Positions 53,341 through 55,120 of a stretch of 64,000 bases of DNA are shown piece by piece. The notes below the pieces were generated by a model. That model was not told the origin of the DNA. It saw only the letters and a program-made list of their open reading frames with translations, and searched no databases. Numbering within the stretch: position 1 is the stretch's first letter; each line of letters starts with the position of its first letter. Origin of the DNA: Octopus sinensis (lineage: Eukaryota); assembly GCF_006345805.1 (NCBI RefSeq), contig NW_021833018.1, positions 62,001 through 126,000 on the forward strand. The letters run 5' to 3'. The translations under genes and the position numbers were made by a program.

Positions 53341-55120
53341 ATGGCTGTCCCCGAATTGTATATCAATTTAATCGTAGTATTGGACTTGAAGACTGGAATG
53401 TCTTTTAGCTATCCTGACTGTCTAATTTATACTGAAAGGAATTCCAATATCCTAAAACTAATGAAAGGTCGCGAATGAATAAATTATTCCCACTAGACTC
53501 TAATATCCATGAGTTGATGGATTTGTCTGACAAAAAGACTATTTCTTTACAAGACGAAACAATCGTACTCCACAACAGCAAAGTAAATGTAACATTGCGC
53601 TTGTCGTCTAAACAGGGCTTTCTGTTTTTTATCATCTTTTAGAATCGACTCAGATTTATGAACAACTCAACTCCAATGGCCTTCAGTCGGCTAAGTCAGA
53701 TTCCGAGTCACATTATTTTTTGGTGAGCTTGTCTTGTTTTAGCCACAGTTCTACGGACATCTGTCCCAGCAACAGAACATGATGCAGGACTATGTCCGCA
53801 CTGCAACCTACCAAAAAGCAATATTAAATAACATCTCTGATTTTTCTAATAAGGTTTGTCTAACCTTTCTGAGGAAGTGAAGGTTGTCCTTGACATTGGA
53901 AGTGGCTCAGGGATTTTGTCCTATTTTGCATGTCAGGCAGGGGCTCGTAAGGTTTATGCTGTTGAGGCAAGTTCGATTGCCCGTCACTGCAAGGTGTCTT
54001 AGCAATGATTCAGGGATTAGACGTTGGTCGAGGCAAATGGATTTGAGAATGTAATTGAAGTGATTCAGGGGAAAATAGAAGATATCGAACTCCCTGAACC
54101 GGTCGATGTCATCATTTCTGAACCTTTGGGATATATGTTGTTCAATGAGAGAATGTTGGAGAGTTATATATACGGAAGAAAGTTCCTCAAATCAGAAGGT
54201 TTTAACATTTGTGACACCGTCCAGGCAAAATGTACCCTTCTCTTTGTGATCTGTTTGTTGCCCCTTTTTCGGATGAAGCTTTATATTCGGAAGTAATGGC
54301 AAAGGCTTCATTTTGGTTGGAATTGTAATTTTCACATTTTGAAGGGAAAAGCATAATTTTTACGGGATTGATCTCAGTAAAGTCTACTCAGAGGCTGTAT
54401 CCGAGTATTTTCGACAGCCTGTTGTCGTATGAGTGCGTTTTGTAGTTGTAGGACACGTTTGATGTCCGAATTCTAATGTCTCGTCCAATCAAATACACAA
54501 CCAACTTTTTGACATGTGATGAAAGTGATTTATTGGAAATTCGTATTCCTCTTCATTATTCAGTAACACAAAATGGAATAATCCATGGATTGGCTTTCTG
54601 GTTCGAGGCCGCCTTCCATGGCTCTCAGTTGGCATATGAATACTGATTTGGATAGATTTACATTTTGGTTGTCCACTGCTCCAACAGAACCTCTGACTCA
54701 TTGGTATCAGATTCGGTGCCTTCTGATTAAGCCTCTTTTGGTATATTCTGGACAGGATCTTACCGGACAAGTATTCATGAAGGCCAATCAGAGGTTCTGT
54801 TTTTATTTTTTAATAATAGGCAAAGCTACGATGTTCATATCGATCTAAGAGTGGACGGACTTAACATTTCCTCCGTCTCTAGTGGCGATATAGATCTCAA
54901 AGATCCTTATTTTCGTTACTATTCAACCGCTTATCCTCCTCCTGGACACCACAATACCACAGTATCCCCATCTGATCAATATTGGGGCTCGGTTCGTGTT
55001 GCCAATACTCGGAACTGTTAATTGTTTGCTTATATTTGTAGTGCAGCCTGATTCTTCCTTCAACAGTATTAGTAATATTTTATTTTTTAATAAGGGACCA
55101 ATCACGGAGGGTTTTTCTAA
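53341..55120 (+). CDS. CARM1: Histone-arginine methyltransferase CARM1/PRMT4
   Basis: [69 protein letters not shown]; about 12 introns of 25-29 nt; terminal exons less certain. Confidence 0.95.

What the first reader, a model, noticed from the sequence alone, without database searches (positions are those of the whole stretch)
53341..55120. Micro-intron splicing that appears to work by length: degenerate donors, no pyrimidine tract, internal AGs skipped
Seen across all host genes (about 70 introns read by eye): lengths are nearly all 21-32 nt, centred near 26. Donors keep little beyond GT, with GTT the commonest start and GTRAG rare. Many 3' ends are purine-rich and branch motifs are rarely visible. 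Protein conservation favours skipping closer AGs, e.g. in CARM1 GTTTGTCTAACCTTTCTGAGGAAGTGAAG (29 nt) and GTGTCTTAGCAATGATTCAGGGATTAG (27 nt), and IDH3A has GTTGATCACCTCTGAGGAGACAG (23 nt). Known: tiny introns are reported in dicyemids, and standard U1/U2AF recognition needs a longer consensus. Inference: a reduced spliceosome that selects GT/GC..AG pairs by a distance ruler, possibly with altered U1/U6 pairing. The Tudor-less SMN and the miniaturised TE introns fit this picture.
Basis: partly seen in the sequence, partly recalled or inferred. Interest (0 to 1): 0.8.

Follow-up and report, generated by a model that had tools for sequence, protein, structure and literature searches.

The report
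Tiny introns with a 22-base floor
A parasite genome hidden in this animal assembly (likely a dicyemid) has introns of about 22-32 bases with almost no splice signals, a pattern already published for dicyemids; AG sites in the first 21 bases are skipped, likely because an ordinary spliceosome needs a minimum spacing on each side of a weak branch adenosine, not because it measures length with altered RNAs.

Summary
The window is a parasite contig inside a 2.7 Gb host assembly, likely a dicyemid. CARM1 has 12 predicted introns of 25-29 nt: 8 fixed by protein homology, 3 by spliced contigs. Across about 1.2 Mb of parasite DNA, 92% of 1,680 predicted introns are 21-32 nt. Donor positions +3 to +6 carry 0.11 bit over intron composition, and there is no pyrimidine tract.

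Distance matters as a floor. Internal AGs occur at chance up to 21 nt from the donor and at 0.17-0.27 of chance from 23 nt on. A hidden adenosine peak lies at +16 to +19 and -7/-8, giving a floor near 16+6 = 22 nt.

Length alone is not enough. Exonic GT..AG decoys outnumber introns 4:1; length separates them poorly (AUC 0.69), base composition well (0.90).

The parasite U6 ACAGAGA box is canonical; U1-70K, SF1 and PRP8 are present. U1, U2 and U2AF2 were not found, so altered U1 pairing is untested.

Tiny, signal-poor dicyemid introns, including the weak A stretch, are published (2007-2026). I found no paper reporting the AG floor.

The parts
53341..55120 (+). CARM1/PRMT4 gene of the parasite, 12 predicted introns of 25-29 nt, about 487 aa
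   Evidence: Near gap-free alignment to CARM1 homologues over the catalytic core; the host has its own CARM1 on C15 at 49% identity
53468..53496 (+). CARM1 intron 1, 29 nt (a 26-nt GC-donor form scores the same)
   Evidence: unresolved
53617..53642 (+). CARM1 intron 2, 26 nt, GC-AG
   Evidence: best by 3.5 bits in a poorly conserved region
53723..53748 (+). CARM1 intron 3, 26 nt; skips an in-frame TAG at 20 nt that follows a good pyrimidine run
   Evidence: best by only 2.3 bits; my ab initio model picks the 20-nt form
53854..53882 (+). CARM1 intron 4, 29 nt; skips AG at 20 nt (in frame) and at 24 nt (out of frame, an exception to the floor rule)
   Evidence: best by 7.3 bits; my ab initio model picks the 20-nt form
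53994..54020 (+). CARM1 intron 5, 27 nt; skips AG at 9 and 20 nt
   Evidence: best by 16.2 bits
54199..54224 (+). CARM1 intron 6, 26 nt
   Evidence: best by 8.5 bits
54316..54344 (+). CARM1 intron 7, 29 nt
   Evidence: best by 7.0 bits
54427..54451 (+). CARM1 intron 8, 25 nt; skips AG at 7 and 19 nt
   Evidence: spliced contig of run X1 and homology
54628..54655 (+). CARM1 intron 9, 28 nt
   Evidence: spliced contig and homology
54794..54819 (+). CARM1 intron 10, 26 nt
   Evidence: spliced contig (listed at 54792, shifts by 2 to GT..AG) and homology
55017..55041 (+). CARM1 intron 11, 25 nt (predicted)
   Evidence: unresolved; an X1 piece ends at 55016
55066..55094 (+). CARM1 intron 12, 29 nt (predicted; a 23-nt form scores the same)
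   Evidence: unresolved
45745..45767 (+). IDH3A intron, 23 nt; skips GAG at 16 and 19 nt; has no A in the fitted branch zone (As at +15 and +18)
   Evidence: ab initio only; gene family from Pfam Iso_dh
52400..52423 (-). 24-nt GT-AG intron of a gene that looks like ISCA1 (name by eye)
   Evidence: spliced contig
58636..58661 (+). 26-nt GT..AG segment missing from one X1 contig; it lies antisense inside an intact retroelement reading frame, so likely cryptic splicing and not an evolved intron
   Evidence: one contig, depth 3.6, from a diverged copy
60967..61441 (+). Short SMN (about 140 aa, two 26-nt introns), YG box, no room for a Tudor domain
   Evidence: Pfam SMN_YG-box

Best explanation
These are real GT/GC-AG introns of about 22-32 nt with little signal beyond the end dinucleotides, likely removed by a conventional U2-type spliceosome that finds each intron as a whole and works at two minimum distances: a predicted branch adenosine at least 15-16 nt after the donor and an AG at least 6 nt after it. 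AGs in the first 21 nt are at chance and are skipped (shown statistically), likely because they lie before or too near the branch A. Beyond the floor the nearest suitable AG, preferably YAG, is usually used, with soft competition up to about 32 nt (inferred from AG avoidance). Which GT..AG pairs count as introns is likely set by many weak cues summed: U/A-richness against GC-richer exons, exon-end AG, +3A/+5G, the zone A, a two-base U bump at -6/-5, and YAG. Errors would be cleared by nonsense-mediated decay (inferred). Length is a constraint, not the recogniser.
For: AG AVOIDANCE. Out-of-frame internal AG, observed/expected: 0.98 (8-19 nt), 0.97 (20-21), 0.45 (22), 0.27 (23-35) in 1,224 introns. 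On a held-out contig of 345 introns: 0.91, 1.17, 0.20, 0.17. Simulated introns run through the same gene finder: 0.98, 0.98, 1.11, 0.96. At equal distance from the used acceptor, AG is rarer once it is >=22 nt from the donor (19 against 33.5 expected, z -3.4); six control dinucleotides show nothing.

BRANCH-LIKE A. Peak at +16 in 22-nt introns, +17 in 23-24, +18 in 25, +19 in 26; absent from simulations. A in the zone: 88.7% against 68.3% shuffled; 312 of 345 against 230 held out; 43 of 45 against 36 in homology-fixed introns, p=0.0005. TRAY is 3-5-fold enriched at +16/17, -7/-8.

COMBINED CUES. All features together separate introns from decoys with AUC 0.96.

MACHINERY. Canonical U6 core; U1-70K, SF1, PRP8 present.

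NMD SIGN. 10 of 10 PRP8 introns of length 3n hold an in-frame stop, against 16 of 27 others.

KNOWN PARALLELS. Minimum branch-AG spacing (PMC5378181) and 5'SS-branch spacing (PMC6692369) in humans.
Against: No branch point was mapped; the A is a statistical peak, and the zone was drawn on the training set before the held-out test.

An explicit rule (first A at >=+16, then first AG >=5-6 nt on) predicts at most 92% of acceptors, below the plain rule first AG at >=22 nt (95.9%). That plain rule already scores 90.5-93% on simulated introns with no avoidance.

Of 24 out-of-frame AGs skipped at >=22 nt, 14 have a suitable upstream A (background 61.5%), so a missing A does not explain the exceptions. 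In the 45 homology-fixed introns 3 AGs are skipped at >=22 nt (3 of 202 positions against 24 of 810; not significant alone). A 21-nt U1-70K intron is homology-fixed, so the floor is soft.

Most introns are my own predictions: 2,027 of 2,298 calls exact in simulation, and two CARM1 introns mis-called. The composition AUC is partly circular because the finder uses intron composition. U1, U2 and U2AF2 were not found.
Confidence: 0.65

Rival explanations
1. A reduced spliceosome picks GT/GC..AG pairs by one end-to-end ruler near 26 nt, with altered U1/U6 pairing and no need for a branch sequence.
For: Narrow lengths. 0.11 bit at +3 to +6. The rule nearest AG to 25-26 nt predicts 95.3% of acceptors. 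Downstream exonic AGs are depleted when they would give 28-32 nt (140 against 199.5) but not 33 nt or more; competing GTs are mildly depleted by distance (z -3.0). One antisense retroelement segment of 26 nt with no zone A appears spliced. No parasite U1 in three searches. SF1's U2AF2-binding motif ends SRF where 6 of 6 homologues showing it have SRW.
Against: 4,713 exonic decoys against 1,174 introns; length AUC 0.69; exonic GT-AG pairs at 22-32 nt are barely depleted (0.89-1.00 of shuffles, similar at other distances). A positional A peak exists. U6 core is canonical. U1-70K is intact. 81 of 1,680 predicted introns are 36-90 nt (unverified); D. japonicum is annotated with 1,216 introns over 100 bp (PMC13644364 supplement). 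The downstream-AG test is confounded with nearness to the junction.
Confidence: 0.12
2. Recognition is mainly compositional and sloppy: U/A-rich stretches between GT and AG are spliced with low fidelity, any nearby A serves as branch, and decay of wrong products supplies the accuracy, as described for Paramecium. This overlaps with the best explanation and differs in the weight given to the A position.
For: Composition alone gives AUC 0.90; intron GC 27% against 45% in decoys. Stops in 10 of 10 3n PRP8 introns. Low GC predicts splicing efficiency in Paramecium (PMC8997360; PMC12862383). Exceptions are not explained by a missing A.
Against: Genes with GC-rich introns (U1-70K has some near 50% GC) keep the same architecture, with shorter introns and a sharper A peak: 0.41 at -8 and 0.39 at +17 against about 0.17. 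Positional features without composition reach AUC 0.947.
Confidence: 0.2
3. The gaps are assembly or prediction artefacts, or decayed pseudogenes of the host.
For: The contig is unplaced in a host assembly; most intron calls come from my own model.
Against: 7 of 7 contig gaps read GT/GC..AG. Homology fixes 45 introns in CARM1 and PRP8 and 5 in U1-70K. The host has separate CARM1, SF1 and U1-70K genes on large contigs. A parasite repeat hits only unplaced contigs, 41 of 41 rows.
Confidence: 0.02

Closest known systems
Dicyemid ultra-short spliceosomal introns (D. acuticephalum, D. japonicum, Dicyema sp.; PMC2222250, PMC2483917, PMC6543705, PMC6736024, PMC13644364)
   Same: Median 24-27 nt, intron-dense genes, donor reduced to about GT(a), acceptor to AG, no pyrimidine tract, and a weak A stretch upstream of the AG proposed as branch site.
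   Different: Median 26, quartiles 24-28 here against 24 (23-25) in D. japonicum, so probably another species. GTT outnumbers GTA. The passages I read do not report the AG-avoidance floor, two-sided A spacing, decoy count, dicyemid U6/U1-70K/SF1 state or 3n-stop excess.
Myxobolid myxozoan introns of 21-27 nt (PMC13644364)
   Same: Same length range and loss of signals; canonical U2 branch-pairing region and U2AF1/2 reported there, supporting ordinary U2-type splicing.
   Different: Cnidarian parasites of fish and annelids; convergent. Here the host label is an octopus.
Paramecium 25-nt introns (PMC8997360, PMC12862383, PMC5014332)
   Same: Median 24-25 nt, only terminal bases constrained, low GC, best efficiency at 23-26 nt, stop excess in 3n introns, conserved snRNAs.
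   Different: Ciliate; efficiency was measured there and is only inferred here. Intron GC is higher here (27% against about 18%).
Stentor coeruleus 15-16 nt introns (PMC9505925)
   Same: Branch A fixed by position with no motif; canonical U1, U2 and U6 pairing regions.
   Different: A at +10/+11 in over 95% of introns there; here the A is weaker, at +16 to +19, and lengths spread over about 10 nt.
Human minimum-distance rules (5'SS-branch about 50 nt, PMC6692369; branch-AG at least 8 nt, PMC5378181)
   Same: Two spacing limits plus choice of an AG downstream of the branch.
   Different: The inferred donor-branch distance here is about 16 nt, a third of the human limit.

Membership tests
U2-type (major) spliceosomal introns | GT/GC..AG ends, removed from transcripts | tested here: met
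   7 of 7 contig gaps; homology. Run X1 is not on record as RNA.
U2-type (major) spliceosomal introns | Branch adenosine upstream of the 3' AG | tested here: inconclusive
   Strong positional A and TRAY excess, but no lariat data.
U2-type (major) spliceosomal introns | U6 snRNA with ACAGAGA box, AGC triad and internal stem-loop | tested here: met
   Three parasite-contig copies, 110.7 bits; core matches host U6, 5' hairpin 3 nt shorter.
U2-type (major) spliceosomal introns | U1 snRNA with a 5' end pairing to the donor | tested here: inconclusive
   No parasite copy; two small-contig candidates were host DNA. U1-70K protein is present.
U2-type (major) spliceosomal introns | U2 snRNA with the branch-pairing sequence | tested here: inconclusive
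   Searches were filled by host or chance hits; 66 rows were not listed.
U2-type (major) spliceosomal introns | Polypyrimidine tract read by U2AF2 | tested here: not met
   Pyrimidines 0.58 at -11 to -4 against 0.59 mid-intron; only -6/-5 rise to 0.68. U2AF2 itself: the search gave no answer. Published myxozoan introns also lack the tract, so this does not by itself exclude U2-type splicing.
U2-type (major) spliceosomal introns | Core proteins PRP8 and SF1 | tested here: met
   PRP8 2,323 aa, about 80% identical to animal homologues; SF1 with helix-hairpin domain and KH motif.
Dicyemid ultra-short introns | Median length 24-27 nt with reduced 5' and 3' signals | tested here: met
Dicyemid ultra-short introns | The organism is a dicyemid | tested here: inconclusive
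   No named dicyemid sequence among the hits. PRP8 falls with animals on a long branch, apart from the octopus row (quick tree, no dicyemid or cnidarian row). A public record files the parasite SF1 under an octopus. GC 34-38% and repeat-rich contigs fit D. japonicum.
U12-type (minor) introns | Long conserved donor and branch motifs | tested here: not met
   0.11 bit at +3 to +6 and no branch motif.
   4 decoys per intron; length AUC 0.69.

The most novel reading that the evidence does not exclude
Dicyemids rebuilt early spliceosome assembly: a U1 snRNA too changed to be found, a loosened SF1-U2AF2 contact (SRF for SRW) and no pyrimidine tract, so that a steric gauge of about 16+6 nt, not base pairing, pairs donor, branch A and acceptor, and almost any U-rich GT..AG stretch of 22-32 nt can be cut, as the antisense retroelement case suggests.
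Probability: 0.2. Interest if true: 0.75.

Novelty: new member of a known kind. Interest (0 to 1): 0.4.

Why it matters
Human spliceosomes stall when donor and branch are under about 50 nt apart, and the 2026 survey of the shortest animal introns leaves open how they are recognised. This work turns that into numbers that can be tested: a floor at 21-22 nt, a likely branch A at +16 to +19, at least 6 nt to the AG, and a canonical U6. The phenomenon itself is published, which limits the surprise. In practice, a largely unannotated parasite genome sits inside this host assembly, and at least one of its genes is in public databases under the host's name with its tiny introns wrongly modelled.

Tried and rejected
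RNA RUNS. No RNA holder was listed. X1 is of unknown kind but carries spliced forms. X2 and X5 gave only short or host-like pieces. Contigs give no efficiency or minor isoforms.

U1. Rfam scored 42 of 31,093 candidates, all host-like; two patterns gave 12 and 8 hits, none parasite. The C9998 hit is a truncated host copy; C12716 is host DNA with no U1 fold. These blanks do not show loss: the parasite assembly may be incomplete.

U2 AND OTHERS. U2 searches were filled by host or chance hits. The U2AF2 family search gave no answer. U1-C, U2AF1, U4 and U5 were not searched. Rfam scans of the window and 292 kb of other stretches found only U6 and one weak rRNA piece.

RULES. First AG at >=22 nt = 95.9% was rejected as headline evidence, because simulations give 90.5-93%. 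The apparent shortage of 3n lengths was rejected: the finder loses 3n introns (686 true, 561 called). An explicit branch-then-scan rule did not beat the plain floor rule, and a missing A did not explain skipped AGs. GG looked as depleted as AG near the 3' end but not in the distance-matched test. In-frame alternatives were left out of the avoidance tests because the finder mis-calls them.

MODELS. The first flat-prior training found few genes. SF1 intron 3 could not be resolved. The careful PRP8 tree did not finish; the quick tree has no dicyemid row. The scan's earlier notes held nothing.

Full report
WHERE THE WINDOW LIES. It is G000:C9489:62001-126000, on an unplaced 256-kb contig of a 2.72-Gb assembly. 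CARM1, SF1 and U1-70K each gave two hits, one on a large contig and one on a small contig with tiny introns. A repeat from C9489 hit only unplaced contigs (41 of 41 rows). The window is therefore a second organism inside a host assembly. Its PRP8 groups with animals on a long branch (quick tree), and a public record files its SF1 under an octopus. With the intron sizes this points to a dicyemid, a kidney parasite of cephalopods; no named dicyemid sequence was available to confirm it.

THE OBSERVATION. The quoted introns are there. Homology fixes 8 of 12 CARM1 introns, 37 of 38 PRP8 introns at 23-34 nt and 5 of 5 tested U1-70K introns at 21-29 nt. Contigs of run X1 lack 7 segments of 24-28 nt, all GT/GC..AG; the other indel rows were single bases (6 and 3 rows). 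I trained a gene finder on 1.03 Mb from six parasite contigs with no positional splice weights (137 genes, 1,312 introns) and applied it to a held-out 150 kb (35 genes, 5 dropped as antisense shadows or repeat-like). Of 1,680 introns 92.1% are 21-32 nt, median 26. With a flat length prior and leave-one-contig-out codon models, 86.9% of 199 confident calls stay in that range. In simulation the finder is exact for 2,027 of 2,298 calls. It mis-calls two in-frame CARM1 acceptors, so avoidance tests used out-of-frame sites only.

SIGNALS. In 1,224 introns of 21-35 nt, starts are GTT 514, GTA 413, GTG 167, GTC 100, GC 30, and GTRAG 37; ends are TAG 739, CAG 242, AAG 194, GAG 49. Positions +3 to +6 hold 0.11 bit over intron composition, with a real but small +5G excess and an exon-end preference for A at -2 and G at -1. 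There is no pyrimidine tract, only a rise at -6/-5.

DOES DISTANCE CHOOSE THE AG? Yes, as a floor. Internal AGs are at chance through 21 nt from the donor, then fall to 0.45 at 22 and 0.27 at 23-35; held out, 0.20 and 0.17; simulated, 1.11 and 0.96. Matching on distance to the used acceptor keeps the effect for AG only (z -3.4). Exonic AGs just downstream are depleted to 0.70 when they would give 28-32 nt and not beyond, a soft upper edge confounded with nearness to the junction. Exceptions exist: 24 out-of-frame skips at >=22 nt among 1,569 introns and 3 in the 45 homology-fixed ones.

A HIDDEN BRANCH-LIKE A. Sorted by length, adenosine peaks at +16/-7 (22 nt), +17/-7 (23), +17/-8 (24), +18/-8 (25) and +19/-8 (26). 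It respects both ends, and 16+6 gives the 22-nt floor. An A lies in the zone in 88.7% against 68.3% of shuffles, 97% against 68% for 25-mers, with TRAY enriched 3-5-fold. This repeats on the held-out contig and in homology-fixed introns and is absent from simulations. It is sharper in genes with GC-rich introns, which are also shorter (rho -0.56, 115 genes). Against this reading, an explicit branch-then-scan rule does not beat the plain floor, and skipped AGs are not those lacking an A.

IS LENGTH ENOUGH? No. Exons hold 4,713 GT..first-AG pairs of 22-33 nt against 1,174 introns. Cross-validated AUC: length 0.69, donor intron side 0.77, branch zone 0.76, acceptor 0.86, composition 0.90, all 0.96. 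Such pairs are hardly depleted from exons. The composition figure is partly circular. All 10 PRP8 introns of length 3n hold an in-frame stop against 16 of 27 others, the decay signature described for ciliates.

MACHINERY. Three U6 copies lie on parasite-type contigs (tetranucleotide r 0.82-0.87; repeats shared with C9489). They match host U6 through the ACAGAGA box, triad and internal stem-loop. U1-70K, SF1 and PRP8 are intact. SF1's N-terminal basic motif ends SRF, against SRW in 6 of 6 homologues showing it and in human SF1; that this is the U2AF2-binding motif is recalled. U1 and U2 were not found and U2AF2 could not be searched, so altered U1 pairing is open and altered U6 pairing is not supported.

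WHAT IS KNOWN. PMC13644364: I read parts 1-2 of 3 of the text, supplement passages and part 60 of 64; the logos are pictures I could not see. It reports for D. japonicum and myxobolids a donor reduced to GTa, an acceptor of AG only, no tract, and 2-3 weak As that move away from the AG as introns lengthen, proposed as branch site. PMC2483917 (passages and section 15) already called dicyemid donors the weakest known. PMC2222250, PMC6543705 and PMC6736024 (passages) give the lengths. Stentor, Paramecium and human spacing come from passages of PMC9505925, PMC8997360, PMC12862383, PMC5014332, PMC5378181 and PMC6692369. Ogino 2010 and Jaillon 2008 I saw only as citations. Eight searches listed no paper on distance-dependent AG avoidance in dicyemids; the library is open-access only, and Ogino 2010 or the unseen logos may hold part of it.

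VERDICT. Real, and a new member of a known kind: dicyemid-type ultra-short introns. Shown: sizes, weak signals, the AG floor, the positional A excess, canonical U6, and the insufficiency of length. Inferred: that the A is the branch, that two steric spacings make the floor, that summed weak cues and decay give accuracy, and that the organism is a dicyemid. Interest 0.4.

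Noticed in passing
G000 contigs C9489, C8459, C8695, C8697, C6303, C9497, C12638 and about 25 more: A whole parasite genome is co-assembled with the host, with contigs up to at least 959 kb. 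Its SF1 is in public databases as a low-quality host protein with tiny introns partly read as coding (P0303).
   Followed up: partly
window 58636-58661 (+): One X1 contig lacks exactly this 26-nt GT..AG segment, which lies antisense within an intact retroelement frame and has no A in the branch zone: possible cryptic splicing. At least this 'TE intron' is not an evolved intron.
   Followed up: partly
L064:3789-3923 (-), SF1 exon 2: The basic motif ends SRF, not SRW as in 6 of 6 homologues and human SF1; it may weaken U2AF2 binding.
   Followed up: partly
G000:C8459:33625-33668 (-), SF1 intron 3: Homology prefers an intron of 44-71 nt over the 20-nt call; the 44-nt form is a 24-nt plus a 20-nt GT..AG unit joined at AG|GT, with a CTAAC near its end. 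Unresolved; recursive or regulated splicing is possible.
   Followed up: partly
predicted introns of 36-90 nt, all contigs: 81 calls, with small clusters near 50-58 and 77-79 nt, about two and three times the modal length. Unverified; may be finder artefacts.
   Followed up: no
C8695:1-150000 (L138-L152) and other contigs: Gene-level GC varies widely (third-position GC 0.27-0.66); GC-rich genes have shorter introns and more +5G.
   Followed up: partly
window 60967-61441 (+): SMN of about 140 aa with an N-terminal WDD motif (by eye) and a YG box but no Tudor domain.
   Followed up: partly
L026:5101-5200, L023:4991-5090: Parasite U6 has a 5' hairpin 3 nt shorter than the host's; the three copies lie on near-identical contigs, probably haplotypes.
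   Followed up: partly
L012:6074-6362 (-): Weak eukaryotic SSU rRNA match (51 bits), probably a decayed fragment.
   Followed up: no
L009-L011, C9489:14880-17225; C12638:24512-26221: Tandem arrays of a roughly 95-nt unit, one family shared between parasite contigs.
   Followed up: no
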